Made by a program: the position numbers and the translations under genes
In this document: piece by piece, positions 224 to 19,177 of the stretch
How the letters are laid out: each line of letters starts with the position of its first letter
Numbering within the stretch: the first letter of the stretch is position 1
The notes under the pieces: generated by a model
The model's database searches: none
Seen by the model: only the letters and a program-made list of their open reading frames with translations
What the model was told of the DNA's origin: nothing
Origin: Escherichia phage EC.W2-6
Length of the DNA: 64,000 nucleotides
Direction: 5' to 3' (one strand)
Sequence record: PP445229.1

Positions 224-2014
224 ATGTCAAAGATCATTTTGGGAGACACAGGTTGTAAGGAATGTATCTCTCATGGTCGTGATAAAACCCACAACCACAT
301 GATTCTCTTCCGTAACGAAGAGACTGGTGAGGAGTGGGGAAGTTGTAACCGTTGTGGGAATTACGAAGTGTTCGAAAAGGGCACTACACCTACTCCAAAC
401 GAGAAGAAAGAGTTATCCCCTGAAGAGTTGAGAGAAGTCTTAGATGATTGCTTAGAGCTTCCTCAGGGTGAACTTACTCGCCGTTTAATCCCAAAAGCTG
501 TATCAGAGCGTTTTGAGTGTCGTATTGGCCTCAGTCAAACTGATGGTCAGACACCAGACAGTTACTTCTTTCCTCGTGAACGTGATGGAAACATTGTCGG
601 ATATGAGGTTAAGCTGCTAGATAGTAAGAAGTTCTATTACGTCGGCAGTGTGAAAGAAGCAGATTTGTTCGGTATGGCACAAGCTCAACGTGGAGATGTG
701 TACAACAAGAAGCTGTTCATTTTTGAAGACCCGCTATCCTGTATGTCAGGTTTCCATGTCCTTACAGCTTTTACAAATGCAACAAACATTAAACCAGCAT
801 GTGTTTCTTTACCGTTCGGTGCAGGTTCAATCTCTTCTGTGTTGTCTCGTAACCGAGACTTCGTAAATGGTTTTGAGGAGGTTGTGCTCTGCATGGACAA
901 CGATGATGCAGGTGAGATAGCTTTAACAAAAGGTCGTTCTTTATTCCCTCATGTTAAGTTTGCTCGTATTCCTAAAGGAACTTTCCCATACAACGGTGTG
1001 GAGAAAGAGATTAAGGATGCGAATGACATGCTTCTGTCTGGTCGTGGTCAAGAGTTATTCAACATTCTCAAGTACTCAGCAAAGCGGGAATCTCCTGCTG
1101 GAGCTGTAACAATCTTTGATTGTCTTGATGATGCTCTGAAGAAAGCGGAGTGGGGTATCCCATATCCGTGGAAGACTCTGAATGAGATGACCTTCGGTAT
1201 TCGATGGGGAGAGGTGGTAGCAATTGGTGGTGGAGTAGGGAGTGGTAAAACACTCATTGCTCACGAGCTGGTTGCCCATCTGTGCTTAGAGCATGGTTTT
1301 AATGGAGGTGGCTTCTTCTTGGAAGAGAAGGTAGGCATGTCTGTTAAGAACATTGCTGGTAAGTCAGCATCAATTCCTTTCCACCGACCTGATGTTGAAT
1401 ATGATGAGGAGGATTTGCGTAATGAAGCACTTCGTTATGCAGACAAATTCTTCTTGTATGACAACTTCGGACAGAACGAATGGGAAGACATTAAACAGTG
1501 TATCCGTTTCTGGGTAGTTGAAAACCAGTGTAAGTTTATCATCCTTGATAACATTACCGCTCTGGTATCTCATTTAACACCTTCAGAGATTAACACTGAA
1601 ATCAGTAAGATTGCTTCCGAGCTTGCTGGTATGTGTAAAGAGTTAGACTTTACCGCTTTCGTGCTATCTCACCTTAATGCTCCGGCAGGTGGTGCTCCTC
1701 ATGAAGAAGGTGGACAGGTACGTGAAGTGCAGTTCACTGGTTCTCGTTCCCTTATGCGTTGGTGTCAGTGTATCATTGGCTTTGAGCGCGACAAGCAAGC
1801 TGATGGCTTAGCTAAGAACCTCTCAGTCATTCGATTACTGAAAGAACGTAACTACGGTCAGACGGGTGTCTGCTATACTAAGTATATCAGTGAAACCGGT
1901 AGACTTGTAGAAAGGGAAGACTTTGAAGTTGATGAAGATAATCCATTCGTTTTAACTAACGGAGAGGATGCAGCTTCTCTCGTCAACCAAGCAGATGGAG
2001 CTTCACCGTGGTAA
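224..2014 (+). CDS. DNA primase/helicase (T7 gp4-like)
   Basis: N-terminal Cys4 zinc motif (CKEC...CNRCG), central TOPRIM-like region, Walker [10 protein letters not shown]; RBS AGGAGGA upstream. Confidence 0.9.
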
Positions 2015-2565
2015 AGAAAAAGAAGAAAGTGTTTGCATTCGATATCGAGAGTAATGCACTGTACGATGACATAACTAAAGTATGGTGTATTTACATCTTC
2101 AATGTTGAAACTGGTGAAAGGTGGGGCTATCGGCCTCACCAAATTGAAGACGGGATTCGTAAACTTACAGAAGCTGATGTGCTCGTTGGTCATAACATTA
2201 TTGACTTCGACTTACCTGCTCTGAAGAAGATGTATCCTTCTTTGATTAAATATCATTTTAACGTCTTTGACACTCTATGTCTTAGTCGATATCTTAAACC
2301 TGACCGTATTGGTGACAGTCCTGAGTATCCGAAAGGCGACCCTAGACATGGCCCAAGAGGTCATGGCTTGAAGCAGTGGGGTGAGTTCTTAGAGGAACTT
2401 AAAGGAGATTACGGTGAGCAAGAGGAAGCATGGGATGCTTTCACTGAAGATATGTTTGCTTATTGTGAACAGGACGTTAACTTAACCGTTAAGGTTTATA
2501 AATACTTGTGTGAACTCACAGGATTCGACCCTTACGACCCACCTTCATTATATTGGAAAATGTAA
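2008..2565 (+). CDS. 3'-5' exonuclease (DnaQ/PolA proofreading domain, stand-alone)
   Basis: DEDD motifs FDIESN (Exo I), HNIIDFD (Exo II), YCEQD (Exo III); start overlaps primase stop. Confidence 0.7.
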
Positions 2566-2566
2566 A

Positions 2567-3928
2567 ATGATTGTTATCCCGATTAACCAAATTGAAGATA
2601 AGGTTTCTCAACAACCTGATATCACTGTTGGTCGTCACTTCATTGAGCAATTGATTAATAACAACTTAATTCCAGACGGTATCTGTCCCATCATTACTGG
2701 TGGGGCTGTTCGAGATGCTGTGCTTAATAACACAGCTCCACATGACATTGATATCTTTATTGTCAGAGGACAAACACCAAGAACTCAAAACACATTCATC
2801 CCAACTGACCGTTGGCAAGCTCTTGGAAGAGAGATTGAAAGTAATGTGAAGGAATGGCTAGAGTCACAAGATATCGAGTATGCATCCCTTCTTGCTGAAG
2901 CTACGAACGAATCCTATGCTGGGGGTTCTCAATTAACATTCACTGATATTATTGAGTTTCAGTGGAATGGGGTTCGTATCCAATTCATGTTTAATTATCC
3001 TACTTCTATTGAAGAGGTATTGGATAATTTTCCTATGATGTGTCGTGGTGCGATGACTCTTGACAATTTATTCATGACTTCTCATGGGTATTTGGCTATG
3101 ACCGCCCCCTGTCCAGTGGTTGTTTCTAGTCGTGAAATCAGATACGTTCACAAGAAGTGGCCTAACTCGCAAGTATTGAGATTTTCCTCTCCAGCAGTTG
3201 CACATCAATACATGGCCCAAACTCGATATCTTCCCACACCCCAGCCGGTTAGTCATCTGGTTAATGGATTAGGTCAGGTTTCTCTTATTGAGGATACAAC
3301 AAGTGCTCAATATTGTGTTAACCGAGACATGAGTCGATTCTTTGGAATCCCTTATGAAGAGATTCAGTTAATGTCAAGCATTCATGGCTCTAGCCAGATT
3401 CGTGCATATTGGTCTGAAGGGTTGACAAACTTAACAACTAATACAGGAGGAGATCTCCTTGGTCGAGAAGATGAACCTAATCGGCACAATGCAATTGAAG
3501 GGGTGTTTGTAGCCCCTGCAATGCGCCGAGCACAAGAGTCACGAAGAGTAAGCCCTACTCGTAGAACATCTTTTGAAGAAGCTCTTGGTATTACAAGTGA
3601 TTCTATGGAGAGATGGATGGCTAGTCCTTCTCGTGGTCGTCCAAATGGTTTAACTGTTAGCGCACGTCAGTTCTCTGGTCAGGGTTTTGCTGTTGGTGAT
3701 ATCAACGCACCTGTTAGGGCTGTGTGGACTGATGAAGGTGTGGCCCAAGATGTGGCAGGTAGTCTTGATGTTCCTTCTCATGAGGAACTTGCTGAGACCA
3801 TCAGTCGAAATCTCGCTGACCGCTTTGTTGCTAACAACCCTGAAGTATTAGAACCTCAAACCCGCACAGTTCGGTTTGCCGATGAAGCGGGTCGTGGAAT
3901 CTCTTTTGACATGGAAACAAACAACTAA
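2567..3928 (+). CDS. nucleotidyltransferase, CCA-adding enzyme/poly(A) polymerase head-domain family
   Basis: GGAVRD...HDIDIFI matches the class II CCA/PAP head motif GGxVRD...DxD; ATG at 2567 adjacent to upstream stop. Confidence 0.55.
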   Translation: MIVIPINQIEDKVSQQPDITVGRHFIEQLINNNLIPDGICPIITGGAVRDAVLNNTAPHDIDIFIVRGQTPRTQNTFIPTDRWQALGREIESNVKEWLESQDIEYASLLAEATNESYAGGSQLTFTDIIEFQWNGVRIQFMFNYPTSIEEVLDNFPMMCRGAMTLDNLFMTSHGYLAMTAPCPVVVSSREIRYVHKKWPNSQVLRFSSPAVAHQYMAQTRYLPTPQPVSHLVNGLGQVSLIEDTTSAQYCVNRDMSRFFGIPYEEIQLMSSIHGSSQIRAYWSEGLTNLTTNTGGDLLGREDEPNRHNAIEGVFVAPAMRRAQESRRVSPTRRTSFEEALGITSDSMERWMASPSRGRPNGLTVSARQFSGQGFAVGDINAPVRAVWTDEGVAQDVAGSLDVPSHEELAETISRNLADRFVANNPEVLEPQTRTVRFADEAGRGISFDMETNN

Positions 3929-3937
3929 GGAATAAGA

Positions 3938-4471
3938 ATGAGTTTACTAGGAAGTGTTGAACTGCACGATGTAATTGACAATGGCTATCTGGATGCGGAG
4001 CATAAGTATGTTAACGCTGCTAGTGTGGATATCCGTATTGGTGATACTATCCTTGTTGAAGAACAGGCTGATGGCATCGTTGATATTGATGCGAAAGAGA
4101 ATCTTCAGTGGAAGGAAGTAAAGATTCCTGAAGAGGGTTTGGTTATCACTCCGGGTCAGTTCTTCTTGGCTCACTCTATGGAGGAGTTTAATCTTCCAGA
4201 TAACATCTCAAGTCTGTTTGTTCTGCGTTCATCTATGGCTCGTTGTGGTTTGAACCATCTCCACGCTGGGTGGGCAGACGCAGGGTTTAATAGCAGTAAG
4301 CTGACATTTGAATTCCATAACGTAACCAAGCATCATAGCTTACGAGTTCGTGCTGGTATGCGTGTTGGTCAGATGGTTATGTTTGAGCACTCTCATGCAG
4401 GGGAGCACTCCTATGCAGTGAAGGGTCGTTATAATAACTCTGAAGGTGTAGTTGCATCTAAAGGTGTGTAA
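3938..4471 (+). CDS. dcd: dCTP deaminase / dUTPase-family protein
   Basis: Motifs VDIRIGD, RSSMARCGL, GWADAGF and C-terminal KGRYNNSEGVVASK resemble Dcd. Confidence 0.8.
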   Translation: MSLLGSVELHDVIDNGYLDAEHKYVNAASVDIRIGDTILVEEQADGIVDIDAKENLQWKEVKIPEEGLVITPGQFFLAHSMEEFNLPDNISSLFVLRSSMARCGLNHLHAGWADAGFNSSKLTFEFHNVTKHHSLRVRAGMRVGQMVMFEHSHAGEHSYAVKGRYNNSEGVVASKGV

Positions 4472-5159: not shown

Positions 5160-5489
5160 ATGTTAGATTTGAGTAAAGTGGCCCCGCCCACTGAAGAGAT
5201 TACAAAATCCAAGGTGATGCAACAGTTTTATCATCGTGATATGCTTGGTCGCTTTATCAAGAATCGTGATGTTGTTGCTTGGTCTATTGGTAATCAGGGA
5301 TATCTGTTGAAGGTTCTTCAGGTTACAGGCTCAACTGCTAAGCGAGTTAAGGTGTATGACCCTGAAATGGGGCGTTCTAAGTCAGTAGACCCACAGAACT
5401 GCATCGTAATTACCCAGCAGGTAATGGATAATATTGCACGTAACGTTGCTAACTCAGTTGAACTTGATGGAGAAAACCCAAATGCATAA
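5160..5489 (+). CDS. hypothetical protein
   Basis: ORF with GGAGAGAG RBS; no recognisable motif. Confidence 0.4.
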   Translation: MLDLSKVAPPTEEITKSKVMQQFYHRDMLGRFIKNRDVVAWSIGNQGYLLKVLQVTGSTAKRVKVYDPEMGRSKSVDPQNCIVITQQVMDNIARNVANSVELDGENPNA

Positions 5490-6045
5490 GAATGTTTTTG
5501 ATTTACCTGAGATTGGTCGTGACAGTTATAGTATGTTAGACCGGTCTGATCTTTCAATCTCTCGCCTTGAAACAATGCAAGGCATGATTAGTGCAAACAG
5601 CCTAGAACACATCCTGAGCTGCTTACAAGCTAACATGGAACTATTGCATATCAAAGCTAAAAACTACCACTGGAACGTCTCTGGTGCAGGATTTCAGGGT
5701 GTCCATGGTATGTTTGATGAGCTGGAAGATTACGCACGACAGGTAGGAGATCGTATTGCTGAACGTATGCGTTACCACTGTGTTAAAGTGGATGCTACAG
5801 CAGCTAATTATCTTTCTCATGCTTGGTTCTCAGAGGGGAATGCTGATCTAGACATGGACGGTATGCTCTCTGATATGTGCATGACCTTGATGTGTATTAT
5901 TGAGAAGATGGATGAGTTTGATGGTGATTTAGCCTCCCACCCTGTCGATCAGAGTATGCTTCAAGAAATTAATGAAGGTCTTGGCAAGTATTGCTACTTC
6001 GTCAAGAGCAACATGTCCCATTCAAGTGGTGACGTGTCTTACTAA
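5482..6045 (+). CDS. Dps/ferritin-like protein
   Basis: KNYHWNVSGAGFQGVHGMFDE...DRIAER parallels the Dps ferroxidase region (HWN..G..F..VHE..D...AER); ATG at 5482 overlaps upstream stop. Confidence 0.55.
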   Translation: MHKNVFDLPEIGRDSYSMLDRSDLSISRLETMQGMISANSLEHILSCLQANMELLHIKAKNYHWNVSGAGFQGVHGMFDELEDYARQVGDRIAERMRYHCVKVDATAANYLSHAWFSEGNADLDMDGMLSDMCMTLMCIIEKMDEFDGDLASHPVDQSMLQEINEGLGKYCYFVKSNMSHSSGDVSY

Positions 6046-6293: not shown

Positions 6294-6569
6294 ATGTCTA
6301 AAGTAATTAAGTTTTATAGCGATCAGTGTGCTCCATGTAAAGCAATGGCTCCTACCTTTGAGAAGGTTGTTAAGGAGTTTGATGTAGAAGTGGAAGAGAT
6401 TAACATCCTTGAAGGTGATGGTCGTGAACAAGCTGTTAAGTATGGTGTACGAAGTATCCCTGCTTTCGTTGTGCCTGACCGTAACAGTGGTGCGCACTAC
6501 AGCCTCTCCGGTATGCAGACTGAAGCAAACCTGAAAGCATTTTTGGACACAGCCCTGAGAAATAAGTAA
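6294..6569 (+). CDS. thioredoxin-like protein
   Basis: Active-site-like CAPCK (Trx WCGPCK) in a 91-aa protein. Confidence 0.7.
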   Translation: MSKVIKFYSDQCAPCKAMAPTFEKVVKEFDVEVEEINILEGDGREQAVKYGVRSIPAFVVPDRNSGAHYSLSGMQTEANLKAFLDTALRNK

Positions 6570-6584
6570 TAAGGATATTCACGG

Positions 6585-7241
6585 ATGAATGAACAACTAC
6601 AAGCAACATTAATCGAAGCTATGGGAAGTGATCGTAGCGTAGTAAACGCAGCTCGAGTTTCCTTTGGCGTAACCCGTGAAGGTGATTTAAATGAACGTGA
6701 TGAACGTCTCATCAACTTTCTCGCAAGAGAGAAGCATGTTACCCCATTCCGACACCCGCAAGTCAGTTTCCGATGCAAAGCACCTATCGCAATTGCGAGA
6801 CAGCTGGGCAAGCATCAGGTTGGATTCTCGTGGAACGAAATGTCCCGGCGGTATAAAGATGGAGCAGTTGAAGTCTTCATCCCTAAAGAGATTTTTGCGA
6901 GACCTTCGGACCTCCATGCAGGTTCAGGGATTCAACTCATCGACGGAGAGCGAGCTGAAGCATTAATGCTGATTAATGATGCATATGAAGCTTCTCTAGC
7001 AGCATATGACAAGTTGATTGAATTTATTGCACCAGAGCAGGCTCGATTTGTTCTTCCTCAGGGGATGATCACTGAGTGGGTGTGGACTGGTTCTTTGTAT
7101 GGCTGGTTTGAGTTGTGCCGTCAGCGACTCTCCTCTCACGCTCAATATGAAGTTCGAGTGTTTGCTAAATCTCTAGATGAAGAGATGGCTAAACTCTACC
7201 CAATCTCGTGGGCAGCTCTGAAGAAAACTTTGGAGAGTTAA
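6585..7241 (+). CDS. thyX: flavin-dependent thymidylate synthase-like (ThyX)
   Basis: AARVSFG N-terminus and ARQLGKH...SWNEMSRRY region resemble the ThyX signature (RHR...S.RY), with H replacing RHR. Confidence 0.6.
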   Translation: MNEQLQATLIEAMGSDRSVVNAARVSFGVTREGDLNERDERLINFLAREKHVTPFRHPQVSFRCKAPIAIARQLGKHQVGFSWNEMSRRYKDGAVEVFIPKEIFARPSDLHAGSGIQLIDGERAEALMLINDAYEASLAAYDKLIEFIAPEQARFVLPQGMITEWVWTGSLYGWFELCRQRLSSHAQYEVRVFAKSLDEEMAKLYPISWAALKKTLES

Positions 7242-9325: not shown

Positions 9326-9643
9326 ATGGCAGATCATGTAGGAAAGAGAGATTATGCACAAGAAAGACGTACCGCAATTGCCCGTGGTGAGACAGGCGTT
9401 GGGAGCAAGAGCGGAGATGCTCAGCGCCACCGTGCACGTCGCATCGTTGAAAAGCGCGATGGAAAAGCTGCTGTCAGAGGTAAAGACGTTGGACACAAAC
9501 GAGCTGTCAAGTCTGGAGGCTCTAATGCGTCAAGCAACTTACGTGTTGAATCAGTCAGCTCAAACCGTTCAAACGGCGGCAAAAGTGGTGATCGAGCTGG
9601 AAAAGCAAACGGAGCTAGGAAGGGGGCGTTGAGTGGTTCTTGA
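9326..9643 (+). CDS. basic low-complexity protein (Gly/Ser/Arg/Lys-rich)
   Basis: AAGGAG RBS; codon pattern (cgt/ggt/gct/gtt) supports this frame over overlapping 9354..9632. Confidence 0.4.
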   Translation: MADHVGKRDYAQERRTAIARGETGVGSKSGDAQRHRARRIVEKRDGKAAVRGKDVGHKRAVKSGGSNASSNLRVESVSSNRSNGGKSGDRAGKANGARKGALSGS

Positions 9644-10124
9644 TGACACCTTATCTTACGATGCGGTCACAGGTAACCTATATTACACAAAATCTCCTAG
9701 CAAAGGAGTGATGTGGAACAAAAGCCACCCCGGAAAGATAGCTGGATGTATGATATCGAAAGGCTATATCGGTGTGTATTTCCAAGGAAGACGATGGAGA
9801 GCGCACCGACTTATAGCTACGCACTTTATACCAAACCCTAACAATTATCCAGAAGTCAACCACATCAATGGGATAAAAGACGATAATCGACTGGAGAATC
9901 TTGAATGGGTATCCGCTTCTGAAAACATACAACATTCCTTTGATACAGGGTTGAATAAAGGGCACACTCGTGACAATAACGGAATGACCAAATTATCCTC
10001 TGGAGATGTTGTAAAGATTAAACAGATGTATGTGAAGGGTTCTAGGGATTTTGGCTCTAGAGGTCTTGGTAAGTTGTTTGGCGTGAGCCATACAGCTATA
10101 CTCCATGCTTTAAAGGAGCTTTAA
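9633..10124 (+). CDS. HNH homing endonuclease
   Basis: AHRLIA...EVNHINGIKDDNRLENLEW...ENIQHS HNH-type motif. Confidence 0.7.
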   Translation: MVLDDTLSYDAVTGNLYYTKSPSKGVMWNKSHPGKIAGCMISKGYIGVYFQGRRWRAHRLIATHFIPNPNNYPEVNHINGIKDDNRLENLEWVSASENIQHSFDTGLNKGHTRDNNGMTKLSSGDVVKIKQMYVKGSRDFGSRGLGKLFGVSHTAILHALKEL

Positions 10125-11346: not shown

Positions 11347-13191
11347 GTGAGCAACCCGGACGCTCTTCCATTTTTGACAGAGATGACTGTCGCTGATATA
11401 ATCTCTAAGCAAGCAAAGCACGGAGTTAGTTTCAACCGAAGAAATGCTCGGTGGTATGTTCACCTCCTTAAAGAGATTATTGTTAATATTGACAGAGAGT
11501 TGATTCCTCTCTTACCTAAGATGAGATTAGATGGCTCTACTTATATGAAGCCGTTTAAGAAGTCTGGAGCTTTACAGAAGTGGCCTCAAGCTTATTGTGA
11601 TAGGGTTGGGCTGAAAAGAGAAGACATTGGTGGAGCATTCACCTGTGTCGAATATGTAGACTTTGATCCATCGAAAGATGCACGAGTTAAAGAAGCTCTT
11701 ATGGATGAGGGCTTTCTTCCTCCAGAGTTTAACGTATCTAAGAAGCCTTGGAATACTTTCGAAATTAAGAAAGATATGAGAAAGTATGGAACATACCAAG
11801 CATGGTATACTGCTTGGATGCGAGGTAATGCTAAACAGAAGCAGACAGCCGAGATGGTTGACGCTGATATTAGAAAGTTCTTAGAGAAGCATTTTCGGTT
11901 TAAAACTAAGAACTACATGAAGGCTTACGTATTTGGTTTGGGATTAAACCCTAATCGCCGTAATCCTGTAACGTTTGATGAGATTAAGAAAGCACTAGCC
12001 ACATCAAACAAGTGGCCTACAGCTCCTACAAACCTCGAGGAGACTCTTGAAGAAGGGTTAGGGGGTGAGCTAGGGAGTGTCGGAAGTTTGCTTAAGAGAC
12101 GCGTTGTGGCGGCTCACAGGCTAGGTCTTATCAGTGGACTCATAGCAAAGGAACGCGAAGATGGTAAACTTTCGGCAGAAGCTAACAGCTGCGCTACGCC
12201 GACTTTTCGATTCAAACATCGTATCGTGGTTAATATTCCCTCCCGTGGTCTGTTTGGTCACGAGTGTCGCAGTTTGTTTGAGTCTGACTATAACTCAGAC
12301 AGTGATCACTCTCGTCCTTTCGTTATTACTAACGTTGTTCCTGATGGTTGTTATATACGAAAAGGTACTAACGTAATTTACGAGAAAGGTAAGCCGGGGA
12401 AGAAAGACAAACCTGTAGGCGCTTACAAATATTACATACCCACTGGTAAAGAAGTATTCTTAGGGTATGATGGTTCTGGACTGGAACTTCGTATGCTCGC
12501 TCACTACCTCATTAAAGAGTGTAGGGATATGCTTGCTGAGGCAATTGAAGAGAACAACCCAGCTAAGAAAGCTCTGGCAGAACGTGGTTTAGCTTCTGCT
12601 ATTATGTATCGTGATATTCTCCTTGAAGGTGATATCCACTCCCACAACCAGAAACTTGCTGGTCTTCCTACTCGTGACAACGCTAAGACATTTATCTATG
12701 CATTCAACTACGGTGCTGGCGATGCTAAGCTTGGTTCAATTGTAGGTGGTGGGGCTGACGAAGGTTCAGTGATGCGAGCACGTTTCTTAGCAGAGAACCC
12801 ATGTATTGCAATCCTCATTGATCGTATGACAGAGAAAGCTGCTCAAGGATACTTGATTGGAGTTGATGGTCGTAAGATTACAATGAGACGGGATGCCACT
12901 GGTAAGGTTATGGTTCATAAAGCCCTTAACACACTCCTGCAATGTGCTGGTGCTGTTGTTATGAAATATGCTATGATGTTCCTTAACAAGTGGATTGAGA
13001 AAGATAAGGTTCGTTGTGCTAAGGTAATTGATATGCACGATGAAGGTCAATTCTCAGTAAACCGTAATGATGTACAGAAACTCAAAGAGCACACTGAGCT
13101 TTGTGTTAAGAAAGCTGGCGAGTATCTGAACATGGAATGTCCTCTGGCATCTGATTGTCAGATTGGACTTAACTGGATGCATACACACTAA
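11347..13191 (+). CDS. DNA polymerase, family A polymerase domain (T7 gp5-like)
   Basis: DGSGLELRMLAHY (motif A) and GDIHSHNQ...LPTRDNAKTFIYAFNYGAGDAKLG (motif B) closely match T7 gp5; GTG start with AAAGGAG RBS. Confidence 0.9.
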   Translation: MSNPDALPFLTEMTVADIISKQAKHGVSFNRRNARWYVHLLKEIIVNIDRELIPLLPKMRLDGSTYMKPFKKSGALQKWPQAYCDRVGLKREDIGGAFTCVEYVDFDPSKDARVKEALMDEGFLPPEFNVSKKPWNTFEIKKDMRKYGTYQAWYTAWMRGNAKQKQTAEMVDADIRKFLEKHFRFKTKNYMKAYVFGLGLNPNRRNPVTFDEIKKALATSNKWPTAPTNLEETLEEGLGGELGSVGSLLKRRVVAAHRLGLISGLIAKEREDGKLSAEANSCATPTFRFKHRIVVNIPSRGLFGHECRSLFESDYNSDSDHSRPFVITNVVPDGCYIRKGTNVIYEKGKPGKKDKPVGAYKYYIPTGKEVFLGYDGSGLELRMLAHYLIKECRDMLAEAIEENNPAKKALAERGLASAIMYRDILLEGDIHSHNQKLAGLPTRDNAKTFIYAFNYGAGDAKLGSIVGGGADEGSVMRARFLAENPCIAILIDRMTEKAAQGYLIGVDGRKITMRRDATGKVMVHKALNTLLQCAGAVVMKYAMMFLNKWIEKDKVRCAKVIDMHDEGQFSVNRNDVQKLKEHTELCVKKAGEYLNMECPLASDCQIGLNWMHTH

Positions 13192-15341: not shown

Positions 15342-15845
15342 ATGGCTGAAGTTTATTTTGCAGGGGATGGTCACTTAGGCCATCGCAACATCTGTAGTTT
15401 TCGTAAGCAATTTAAAACCATCGAAGAACACGACAAAGTAATCCTAGCTGCATTTGATCATGTAACTAAGCGTGATAAAATCTTCTTTACCGGTGATTGG
15501 GTGTTTGAAAAGTATGCCCTTGATATCATCGCTGAAGTAAGAGGAGAGAAGCATCTAGTCTTAGGAAACCATGACAGGTTAGAACTTCTCCCTGATATGA
15601 TGAAAGTCTTCCGTAGAATCTCTGGTGATTATAAATATAAAGAGTTTTGGGTAACTCATATTCCTATTCACACTGATGAGATGAGAGGAAAGTTTAACAT
15701 TTATGCTCATACACACAACCATGTAATTGATGATTGGAGATATTTCTGTACATCAATGGAGCAAATTGACTATAAAGCTGTTTCTCTGCAAGAGATTAGG
15801 AAGGTCTTTGATGAAAGAAGAAAAGAACAAGATCTCATTATTTAA
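15342..15845 (+). CDS. metallophosphoesterase (calcineurin-like)
   Basis: GDGHLGH, GDWV and GNHD motifs. Confidence 0.65.
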   Translation: MAEVYFAGDGHLGHRNICSFRKQFKTIEEHDKVILAAFDHVTKRDKIFFTGDWVFEKYALDIIAEVRGEKHLVLGNHDRLELLPDMMKVFRRISGDYKYKEFWVTHIPIHTDEMRGKFNIYAHTHNHVIDDWRYFCTSMEQIDYKAVSLQEIRKVFDERRKEQDLII

Positions 15846-17546: not shown

Positions 17547-17690
17547 ATGCAGGGTTGACTTACCTTTTTTAGAGAGTGCTCAAGGAAAAGCACTAGCCAC
17601 TACGTTGGAGTGGTATCAGGACCAGTACACAGAATGTGCTGCCAATCACAATGGATTGTTAGAAGCTCTGAAAGAGCGTGGAATAGAATA

Positions 17691-17691
<1 letters not shown>
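17431..17691 (+). CDS. candidate o-spanin lipoprotein (Rz1-like)
   Basis: MRK...ALVMTMSAC lipobox-like signal; begins in +1 frame inside the preceding ORF. Confidence 0.4.

Positions 17692-19177
<1,486 letters not shown>

What the first reader, a model, noticed from the sequence alone, without database searches (positions are those of the whole stretch)
6294..6569. Own thioredoxin alongside a T7 gp5-like polymerase
T7 DNA polymerase uses host thioredoxin as its processivity factor. This phage has a gp5-like polymerase and also encodes a CxxC thioredoxin (CAPCK). It may supply its own processivity subunit and so be independent of host trxA. No ribonucleotide reductase is present in the window to offer the obvious alternative role.
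Basis: inference. Interest (0 to 1): 0.45.

Follow-up and report, generated by a model that had tools for sequence, protein, structure and literature searches.

The report
Phage thioredoxin beside T7-like polymerase
This E. coli phage (a Kuravirus) does encode a small thioredoxin, a T7-type DNA polymerase and no ribonucleotide reductase, but the gene is already annotated, the idea that it clamps the polymerase was published in 2021, and sequence analysis cannot tell that role from ordinary redox work.

Summary
ORF 6294-6569(+) encodes a 91-aa thioredoxin-fold protein with a CAPC motif and a cis-Pro. The window is a Kuravirus, 100% identical to Escherichia phage EC.W14-3. Its polymerase is T7 gp5-like. 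Neither the window nor the complete SU10 genome has a ribonucleotide reductase.

- The polymerase is split into an exo subunit (2008-2565) and a pol subunit (11347-13191).
- It carries a ~53-aa insertion exactly where T7 has its 76-aa thioredoxin-binding domain; Klenow has none.
- Sequence similarity inside the insertion is marginal.
- AlphaFold2 models the insertion as an ordered subdomain without a partner.
- The same insertion occurs in LUZ24-like phages, which encode no thioredoxin.

All phage orthologues keep CxPC. The gene sits in a conserved helicase–exo–dCTP deaminase–Trx–(small protein)–Dps module.

The processivity-subunit hypothesis was already published for this phage group (Privateer paper, 2021) and is still untested. 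I estimate about 0.45 for a redox role and about 0.25 for a polymerase subunit. The finding is already known and of modest interest.

The parts
6294..6569 (+). Thioredoxin-fold gene (91 aa). It lacks the N-terminal beta1-alpha1 of E. coli TrxA.
   Evidence: Pfam PF00085 at 50.6 bits. PDB thioredoxins align from E. coli residue 23/24 onward. NCBIfam TIGR01068 scores 49.2, below its cut-off of 96.8. dN/dS against phage EK010 is 0.14.
6327..6338 (+). Active-site codons C12-A-P-C15 (CxPC).
   Evidence: Read directly from the sequence. C-x-P-C is conserved in every orthologue examined, down to about 35-40% identity, including 70-78-aa mini versions.
6459..6461 (+). Codon of Pro56, the cis-proline of the thioredoxin fold (R-S-I-P).
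   Evidence: Aligns with E. coli TrxA Pro76. Conserved in all orthologues.
11347..13191 (+). T7 gp5-like family A DNA polymerase, polymerase subunit only (614 aa, GTG start).
   Evidence: Pfam DNA_pol_A. T7 gp5 is the best PDB hit at 1e-32. AlphaFold2 mean pLDDT is 91.9. The top 27 Foldseek hits are T7 gp5.
11503..11661 (+). Thumb insertion (residues 53-105) at the position of the T7 thioredoxin-binding domain.
   Evidence: Alignment with T7 gp5 and Klenow shows 76 aa in T7, about 53 here and none in Klenow. The family profile aligns to T7 318-363. pLDDT is 88-93 with strands at 59-66 and 98-104 and a helix at 78-87. dN/dS is 0.02, though dS is saturated.
2008..2565 (+). Separate 3'-5' exonuclease subunit of the split polymerase (185 aa).
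   Evidence: Pfam DNA_pol_A_exo1. PHROG 'DNA polymerase exonuclease subunit'. SU10 gp075 annotation.
224..2014 (+). T7 gp4-like primase-helicase with an acidic C-terminal tail ending in Trp.
   Evidence: Pfam DnaB_C. The last 30 residues hold 7 D/E and 0 K/R and end in ...GASPW.
5482..6045 (+). Dps/ferritin-like protein. It neighbours the thioredoxin gene in most of the related phages examined.
   Evidence: Pfam Ferritin. NCBIfam Dps, below cut-off. Ferroxidase-centre residues align with E. coli Dps. Neighbourhood seen.
5160..5489 (+). 109-aa protein of unknown function (phrog_10984), a conserved partner of the Dps gene.
   Evidence: PHROG hit. Orthologues lie next to Dps in nine other loci. 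The AlphaFold2 model is weak (pLDDT 68), a small SH3/Tudor-like barrel.
6585..7241 (+). ThyX (flavin-dependent thymidylate synthase), immediately downstream of the thioredoxin gene.
   Evidence: Pfam Thy1 at 149 bits.
3938..4471 (+). dCTP deaminase, part of the same nucleotide-metabolism and replication module.
   Evidence: Pfam DCD at 118.5 bits.

Best explanation
The gene encodes a redox-active, minimal thioredoxin expressed with the middle (replication and nucleotide-metabolism) genes. By inference, host thioredoxin reductase keeps it reduced. It then acts as a general disulfide reductant during the burst of phage DNA synthesis. It would feed electrons to the host ribonucleotide reductase (or, in relatives that have one, the phage RNR) and to peroxide- and damage-control enzymes, alongside the co-conserved Dps ferroxidase.

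What is shown: the fold, the intact CxPC and cis-Pro catalytic apparatus under purifying selection, and the conserved gene neighbourhood. What is inferred: the actual substrates and the dependence on host TrxB.
For: - Both cysteines of CxPC, the cis-Pro and the [ST]-G loop are kept in every orthologue, from Kuravirus to Grimontviridae and in the 70-78-aa mini versions, at 35-50% identity. dN/dS is 0.14.
- The gene lies in a conserved module: primase-helicase, exo, dCTP deaminase, (PhoH/MazG), Trx, ~90-aa protein, Dps, (NrdD or a small ATP-cone protein). It is never adjacent to the polymerase subunit.
- Several relatives carry NrdD/NrdG or NrdAB. In Aeromonas phage LAh_8 the only thioredoxin-like gene sits beside the class I RNR.
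- PHROG_22 places it in a very large phage thioredoxin family. Homologues occur in phages with unrelated polymerases, such as the N4-like Axy12 and a crAss-like phage.
- In the one phage thioredoxin studied experimentally (cyanophage Syn5), the authors concluded a redox/RNR role rather than processivity.
- SU10 proteomics detected the protein at 52.8% coverage, so it is expressed.
Against: - Kuravirus and the complete Pantoea phage TacPo2 genome have no detectable RNR yet keep the gene. An RNR-coupled role would therefore have to go through the host enzyme, which already has TrxA and Grx1.
- The protein departs from canonical TrxA. Trp31 of WCGPC is replaced by Gln/Ser/Thr, the N-terminal beta1-alpha1 is missing, and it scores below the NCBIfam thioredoxin equivalog cut-off. 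Recognition by host TrxB is therefore unproven.
- No phage-encoded reductase or obvious thiol-dependent substrate lies in the window.
Confidence: 0.45

Rival explanations
1. This is the first reader's idea, also published by Corban & Ramsey in 2021. The phage thioredoxin is a dedicated accessory subunit of the split T7-like polymerase. It would dock through its active-site face on the ~53-aa thumb insertion and, as E. coli TrxA does on T7 gp5, order basic loops that clamp the duplex and recruit the acidic C-terminal tail of the helicase. Replication would then be processive and independent of host trxA.
For: - The polymerase's closest solved relative is T7 gp5.
- An insertion of about 53 aa sits exactly at the TBD site, between helix H and H1, where Klenow has nothing.
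- Its C-terminal end resembles the T7 TBD: 'KREDIGGAFTCVEYVDFDPSK' against 'TREYVAGAPYTPVEHVVFNPSS'. A family profile aligns to T7 318-363. From memory, this segment holds E319 (a suppressor of trxA G74D) and T327 (next to Trx Cys32).
- The insertion is net basic (10 K/R against 6 D/E), and the helicase has an acidic tail ending in an aromatic residue, as in T7 gp4.
- A thioredoxin-fold gene is present in most clades that share this polymerase, including two without an RNR (Kuravirus, TacPo2). It keeps a fixed place two to three genes after the exo subunit.
- In T7, binding needs the reduced cysteines (from memory), so CxPC conservation does not argue against this role.
- T7 TBD-Trx recognition is highly specific, so a dedicated co-evolved subunit would remove a host escape route.
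Against: - Similarity within the insertion proper is marginal for the window (z = 2.8) and absent for GAP52 and P0057. The insertion is 23 aa shorter than in T7 and lacks T7 residues 258-276 and about 311-316.
- AlphaFold2 predicts the insertion as a confident, ordered subdomain without any partner, pLDDT 88-93. The T7 TBD, by contrast, is flexible without thioredoxin (from memory; residues 300-314 are unresolved even in the complex).
- LUZ24-like phages have the same insertion and motif but no thioredoxin-fold gene in a complete genome.
- The gene is not adjacent to the polymerase subunit.
- No virus-encoded thioredoxin has been shown to act this way, and the Syn5 study argues against it for that phage.
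- A complex model could not be made.
Confidence: 0.25
2. The thumb insertion binds the host's TrxA, as in T7, or needs no partner at all. The phage thioredoxin would have an unrelated structural or regulatory role. Examples are a redox partner of the Dps/109-aa pair (iron release or peroxide handling), or a non-redox assembly cofactor like TrxA in filamentous-phage assembly.
For: - The insertion is equally conserved in phages with and without their own thioredoxin.
- The Trx, ~90-aa protein and Dps triad is conserved across Gordonclarkvirinae and Grimontviridae.
- The Dps keeps its ferroxidase residues.
- ThyX, a flavoenzyme known to leak H2O2 in air (established knowledge), lies next door.
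Against: - The 109-aa/Dps pair also occurs without the thioredoxin (LAh_8, L087, L093).
- TacPo2 has a mini-thioredoxin, and my family search did not look for a Dps there, so the linkage is loose.
- The 109-aa protein family has no conserved cysteines.
- There is no direct evidence for any such partner.
Confidence: 0.2

Closest known systems
E. coli TrxA bound to the thioredoxin-binding domain of T7 gp5 (PDB 1T7P and related entries)
   Same: The polymerase is of the T7 type. It has an insertion at the same thumb position, a partly similar C-terminal segment of that insertion, a gp4-like helicase with an acidic tail ending in an aromatic residue, and a thioredoxin-fold protein available in the infected cell.
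   Different: - Here the thioredoxin is phage-encoded, only about 30% like TrxA, lacks residues 1-22 and has QCAPC instead of WCGPC.
- The insertion is 53 aa rather than 76 and is predicted to be ordered on its own.
- The polymerase is split into exo and pol subunits.
- Binding has not been shown.
Thioredoxin of phiEco32, SU10, 7-11, GAP52 and Privateer (C3-morphotype podophages); hypothesis of Corban & Ramsey 2021
   Same: It is the same gene family, 97-99% identical in SU10 and phiEco32. The same hypothesis was proposed, that the thioredoxin couples with the T7-like polymerase to raise processivity.
   Different: Nothing differs biologically. This work adds the mapping of the thumb insertion, its presence in thioredoxin-less relatives, and the conserved gene module.
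Phage thioredoxins and glutaredoxins that serve ribonucleotide reductase (T4 NrdC; cyanophage Syn5 thioredoxin)
   Same: It is a small CxxC redoxin encoded among replication and nucleotide-metabolism genes. Some relatives of this phage carry NrdD/G or NrdAB nearby.
   Different: Kuravirus has no RNR of its own, so the gene is not next to one.
Minimal archaeal/bacterial thioredoxins (MJ0307 and MTH895 families; Pfam Thioredoxin_3)
   Same: The size is 75-90 aa, with no N-terminal beta-alpha unit. There are weak hits to TIGR00411/TIGR00412 and PF13192.
   Different: The scores are far below those families' cut-offs, and the best match is still classic thioredoxin PF00085.

Membership tests
Thioredoxin (Pfam PF00085) | Profile score above the gathering threshold | tested here: met
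   50.6 bits against a cut-off of 23.5.
Thioredoxin (Pfam PF00085) | CxxC active site and cis-proline loop | tested here: met
   C12-A-P-C15 and R-S-I-P56 align with E. coli C32-G-P-C35 and R73-G-I-P76.
Canonical TrxA (NCBIfam TIGR01068 / PRK09381 equivalogs) | Equivalog score, WCGPC motif and full five-stranded fold with N-terminal beta1-alpha1 | tested here: not met
   49.2 bits against a cut-off of 96.8, and 37.5 against 138. The motif is QCAPC. The alignment starts at E. coli residue 23/24.
Canonical TrxA | Disulfide reductase activity, recycled by thioredoxin reductase | not testable with these tools
   Needs an enzyme assay.
T7-like family A DNA polymerases (cluster 5 of Czernecki et al. 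2023) | Closest sequence and structure relative is T7 gp5; Tyr at the ddNTP-discrimination position of motif B | tested here: met
   PDB phmmer gives 1e-32 to T7 gp5 against 1.5e-6 to Klenow. Foldseek gives 1e-26 to T7 gp5 against 2e-16 to Bst. 'RDNAKTFIYAF' aligns with T7 'RDNAKTFIYGF', which holds Y526.
T7-like family A DNA polymerases | Exonuclease and polymerase domains in one chain | tested here: not met
   The exo domain is a separate ORF at 2008-2565, 8.8 kb from the pol ORF.
T7 thioredoxin-binding domain (TBD) | Insertion between thumb helices H and H1 that is absent from Pol I | tested here: met
   Alignment with T7 gp5 and Klenow. AlphaFold2 helices 31-55 and 111-120 flank the insertion.
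T7 thioredoxin-binding domain (TBD) | About 76 residues, with sequence homology to T7 258-333 | tested here: inconclusive
   The insertion is 53 residues. Smith-Waterman against shuffles gives z = 2.8 (36/2000) for the window and is not significant for GAP52 or P0057. The profile hit to T7 318-363 scores 17 bits but is partly carried by helix H1.
T7 thioredoxin-binding domain (TBD) | Binds thioredoxin tightly and raises processivity | not testable with these tools
This needs AF-Multimer/AF3 or biochemistry.
RNR-coupled phage redoxin (T4 NrdC type) | A ribonucleotide reductase encoded in the same genome, usually nearby | tested here: not met
   There is no RNR in the window or in the complete SU10 genome. 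One is present in some relatives.

The most novel reading that the evidence does not exclude
The phage thioredoxin is a virus-encoded, dedicated processivity subunit that docks on a shortened thioredoxin-binding insertion of a three-piece T7-type replicase (exo + pol + Trx). This would make Kuravirus replication independent of host trxA. It would be the first case of a virus carrying its own copy of the cofactor that T7 steals from its host.
Probability: 0.25. Interest if true: 0.6.

Novelty: already known. Interest (0 to 1): 0.25.

Why it matters
If the phage thioredoxin really were the polymerase's clamp, it would show how a virus internalises a host factor and closes a host escape route, since trxA loss blocks T7. 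It would also give a compact three-protein processive replicase for biotechnology. Kuraviruses are candidates for phage therapy against E. coli, so knowing whether they depend on host trxA matters for predicting resistance. As it stands, the gene is a routinely annotated phage thioredoxin and the hypothesis is already in print. The value of this work is a sharper, testable statement of that hypothesis.

Tried and rejected
- **Complex modelling.** I built an alignment of nine natural Trx/pol pairs fused by a Gly-Ser linker (A2) to model the complex with AlphaFold2.
- **IMG/VR scan.** A scan with the polymerase alignment returned mostly distant marine T7-like podoviruses that match only the palm and fingers. 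None had a thioredoxin within 10 kb. It was of little use for this clade.
- **An argument I withdrew.** I first classed the phage of polymerase P0057 (L089) as thioredoxin-less and was going to use its near-identical insertion as evidence against the hypothesis. A more sensitive scan found a 70-aa CGPC mini-thioredoxin at the syntenic position there and in the Pantoea phage TacPo2, so I dropped that argument.
- **Literature.** Searches for host-factor data (trxA + Kuravirus) and for T7 interface residues (Thr327/Cys32) found nothing. Two T7 reviews were not held. The statements about T7 E319 and T327 therefore rest on my memory.
- **The 109-aa neighbour.** Its structure came out at low confidence (pLDDT 68) with only weak SH3/Tudor-like matches, which is not informative.
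- **Defence systems.** PADLOC gave no hit for the thioredoxin, Dps or the small neighbours.
- **ThyX as partner.** I rejected ThyX as a thioredoxin client. Flavin-dependent thymidylate synthase is reduced by NAD(P)H through FAD (established knowledge), and the adjacency is not conserved: in 7-11, L088 and EK010 other genes intervene, and the GAP52 region shown has no ThyX.

Full report
**1. Observation**

The ORF at 6294..6569 on the + strand is real. It has an ATG start preceded by AAGGA, encodes 91 codons and ends in TAA. It is a thioredoxin-fold protein:
- Pfam PF00085 at 50.6 bits, with a cut-off of 23.5.
- PHROG_22 'thioredoxin domain'.
- Dozens of solved thioredoxins at E of about 1e-8 to 1e-10.

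The active site reads F-Y-S-D-Q-C12-A-P-C15-K, and the cis-proline loop is V-R-S-I-P56. Two features separate it from canonical TrxA. All alignments start at E. coli residue 23/24, so the N-terminal beta1-alpha1 unit is missing. The Trp of WCGPC is replaced by Gln. It also scores below the NCBIfam equivalog cut-offs for thioredoxin (49 against 96.8).

**2. Where the window comes from**

The region is 100% identical to Escherichia phage EC.W14-3 and EC.W8-1, and 92-97% identical to SU10, phiEco32-type phages and several BASEL phages. It is therefore a Kuravirus (Gordonclarkvirinae). The gene is annotated as 'thioredoxin', 'thioredoxin domain' or 'thiol-disulfide isomerase and thioredoxin' in many of the 129 phage records that hold it, and as 'hypothetical protein' in others.

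The complete SU10 genome (129 features) has no ribonucleotide reductase. I found none in the window either.

**3. The polymerase**

The gp5-like enzyme is split. A 185-aa 3'-5' exonuclease subunit (2008..2565) follows the primase-helicase (224..2014). The 614-aa polymerase subunit lies 8.8 kb downstream (11347..13191).

T7 gp5 is by far the closest solved relative:
- By sequence, E = 1e-32 for T7 gp5 against 1.5e-6 for Klenow.
- By structure, the AlphaFold2 model (mean pLDDT 91.9) has T7 gp5 as its 27 best Foldseek matches, at E = 1e-26 and TM 0.58. Bst and Klenow types follow at 1e-16.

The Tyr that T7 uses for ddNTP acceptance is conserved.

**4.

I aligned the family with T7 gp5 and with Klenow (polA from E. 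coli K-12).
- Klenow runs directly from helix H ('...KKAHEIAGE') into 'EFNLSSTKQL' (helix H1).
- T7 inserts its 76-residue thioredoxin-binding domain (258-333) there.
- The window polymerase inserts about 53 residues (53-105: IPLLPKMRLDGSTYMKPFKKSGALQKWPQAYCDRVGLKREDIGGAFTCVEYVD) at exactly that point.

The AlphaFold2 secondary structure agrees: helix 31-55, then the insertion, then helix 111-120. The last part of the insertion resembles T7 ('KREDIGGAFTCVEYVDFDPSK' against 'TREYVAGAPYTPVEHVVFNPSS'). A profile of 79 family members aligns locally to T7 318-363 at 17 bits.

From memory, not tested here: T7 E319 is a suppressor site for trxA G74D, and T327 lies next to Trx Cys32. The insertion is net basic. 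The helicase ends in an acidic tail with a terminal Trp, which recalls the T7 gp4 tail that contacts the TBD.

The criterion 'no thioredoxin-binding insertion' is therefore not fulfilled.

**5. Limits of that result**

- When only the insertion is compared with the T7 TBD, the similarity is marginal. For the window z = 2.8, with 36 of 2000 shuffles reaching the score. For the GAP52 and P0057 orthologues it is not significant.
- The insertion is 23 residues shorter than in T7.
- AlphaFold2 models it, without any partner, as a confident ordered subdomain: pLDDT 88-93, strands 59-66 and 98-104, helix 78-87.
- It is the most constrained part of the gene. dN/dS is 0.02, against 0.08 for the whole polymerase, although dS is saturated.
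- It is conserved in every member of the family, with invariant P57, G74, G96 and F98. That includes LUZ24, whose complete genome contains no thioredoxin-fold ORF even in a sensitive profile scan.

The insertion is thus an old feature of this polymerase lineage. Its presence does not depend on a phage thioredoxin.

**6. Comparative genomics of the thioredoxin**

Using profile scans of six-frame ORFs and precomputed Pfam hits, I found a thioredoxin-fold gene in:
- Kuravirus and Suseptimavirus: the window, SU10, EK010, L007, L099, L100.
- Grimontviridae and metagenomic relatives: GAP52, 7-11, P59, L088, L090, L091.
- Pantoea phage TacPo2 and contig L089, as a 70-78-aa mini form with CGPC.
- Aeromonas phage LAh_8, as a 76-aa form next to the class I RNR.

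It is absent from LUZ24 (complete genome). It was not seen within 10 kb of the polymerase in L087 and L093. L092 has a glutaredoxin with NrdAB instead.

The recurrent order is primase-helicase, exo, dCTP deaminase, (PhoH or MazG), Trx, ~90-aa protein, Dps, (NrdD or a small ATP-cone protein). In Kuravirus the order is 109-aa protein, Dps, 59-aa membrane protein, Trx, ThyX. The gene is never next to the polymerase subunit.

Two lineages without a detectable RNR (Kuravirus; TacPo2) keep the gene. A role tied strictly to a phage RNR is therefore excluded for them.

**7. Sequence constraints**

Every orthologue keeps both cysteines (C-A/V/S/M/G-P-C), the cis-Pro and the [ST]-G loop that corresponds to E. 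coli G92. The position of E. coli G74 varies (S, Q, G, N, A). dN/dS between the window and EK010 is 0.14.

This is what a working redox thioredoxin looks like. It is also compatible with T7-type docking, which uses the same face and, from memory, needs the reduced cysteines.

**8. Literature**

- The SU10 paper lists the thioredoxin, the polymerase, Dps and the 109-aa protein among the few middle genes shared by all five C3 phages. It detected the thioredoxin by mass spectrometry (PMC4281155).
- Czernecki et al. 2023 note that only about 29% of T7-like polymerases have a TBD of at least 50 aa, and that an exo/pol split exists in S-SBP1-like cyanophages (PMC10201439).
- A 2026 preprint on cyanophage Syn5 shows that its thioredoxin is redox-active and enhances phage DNA replication. 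AlphaFold3 puts host thioredoxins, not the phage one, on the polymerase, and the authors favour an RNR role.
- T7 TBD-TrxA binding is tight (about 5 nM) and specific enough that a 57%-identical thioredoxin is not recruited (PMC8010470).
- I found no data on Kuravirus growth on trxA mutants.

**9. Weighing the explanations**

For the subunit model:
- a T7-type replisome;
- an insertion at the right place, with a partly T7-like end;
- no RNR;
- retention of the gene in RNR-less lineages, at a fixed place in the replication module;
- a plausible selective advantage.

Against it:
- only marginal homology of the insertion;
- an insertion that is predicted to fold on its own;
- the same insertion in a thioredoxin-less lineage;
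- no adjacency to the polymerase subunit;
- the general rule that phage thioredoxins are redox proteins, and the Syn5 precedent.

I put a redox role at about 0.45. In this model host TrxB-dependent disulfide reduction supports dNTP supply through host or phage RNR and oxidative protection alongside Dps. I put the polymerase-subunit role at about 0.25, and other roles (including the polymerase using host TrxA or no cofactor) at about 0.2. The remainder is unassigned.

**10. Verdict**

Both the gene and the hypothesis are already in the public record, so novelty is low ('already known') and interest modest (0.25). What this analysis adds:
- a mapped candidate docking insertion (residues 53-105 of the pol subunit);
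- the finding that it is shared with thioredoxin-less relatives;
- the conserved helicase-exo-DCD-Trx-p90-Dps module;
- a concrete set of decisive experiments.

Noticed in passing
window 2008-2565 and 11347-13191: The family A polymerase is split into an exonuclease subunit and a polymerase subunit encoded 8.8 kb apart. The same arrangement is conserved in Kuravirus, Grimontviridae, LAh_8, TacPo2 and LUZ24 ('DNA polymerase part I/II'). Czernecki et al. 2023 describe an exo/pol split in S-SBP1-like phages as the first seen in PolA. This older, non-adjacent split looks like an independent and much wider case.
   Followed up: partly
In ten loci it is paired with a conserved ~90-109-aa protein of unknown function (phrog_10984; motif HRD.L.R.I...D.V.W, acidic tail). 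That protein's AlphaFold2 model is only a weak SH3/Tudor-like barrel. In several relatives a stand-alone ATP-cone protein of about 90 aa follows Dps.
   Followed up: partly
window 11641-11643 (pol Cys100): In Kuravirus and Suseptimavirus polymerases the residue after the Thr that aligns with T7 Thr327 is a cysteine (GGAFTCVEY). Other family members have Ala, Val, Pro or Ser there. From memory, an engineered T327C in T7 gp5 forms a disulfide with Trx Cys32, so a natural Cys next door could allow a mixed disulfide with the phage thioredoxin. This is pure speculation.
   Followed up: no
window 1925-2014 (helicase C-terminus): The primase-helicase ends in an acidic tail (7 D/E and no K/R in the last 30 residues) with a C-terminal Trp. 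This resembles the acidic, Phe-terminated tail of T7 gp4 that contacts the polymerase.
   Followed up: partly
L101 15261-15497 (Pantoea phage TacPo2) and L089 7523-7735: These are mini-thioredoxins of 70-78 aa (CGPC, cis-Pro) at the position syntenic with the Kuravirus thioredoxin, after exo, dUTPase/DCD and MazG. They are annotated as hypothetical. The TacPo2 one scores exactly at the Pfam threshold (23.5 bits), and the L089 ORF has no precomputed Pfam hit.
   Followed up: partly
window 2510-3928: A protein of about 456-472 aa between the exo subunit and the dCTP deaminase gives a weak hit to the poly(A) polymerase / CCA-adding enzyme head domain. It is annotated 'nucleotidyltransferase' in SU10.
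   Followed up: no
window 9633-10124: An HNH endonuclease ORF lies in a stretch where related Kuravirus genomes align in several pieces (92-94% coverage). This suggests a mobile homing endonuclease that is present in some relatives and absent in others.
   Followed up: no
window 17610-18131 and 15342-15845: A Macro-domain (ADP-ribose-binding/hydrolase) protein and a calcineurin-like phosphoesterase lie among the middle genes. The neighbouring ORF at 18151-18798 is probably the phage sigma factor, by synteny with SU10 gp032 only.
   Followed up: no
SU10 record L002 12523-20900; LUZ24 L094 9902-13075; TacPo2 L101 3256-7795: A conserved cluster of GATase, ATP-grasp (RimK-like), amidoligase, COOH-NH2 ligase and gamma-glutamyl cyclotransferase genes lies upstream of the helicase in all these phages. 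It lies mostly outside the window, and its product is unknown.
   Followed up: no
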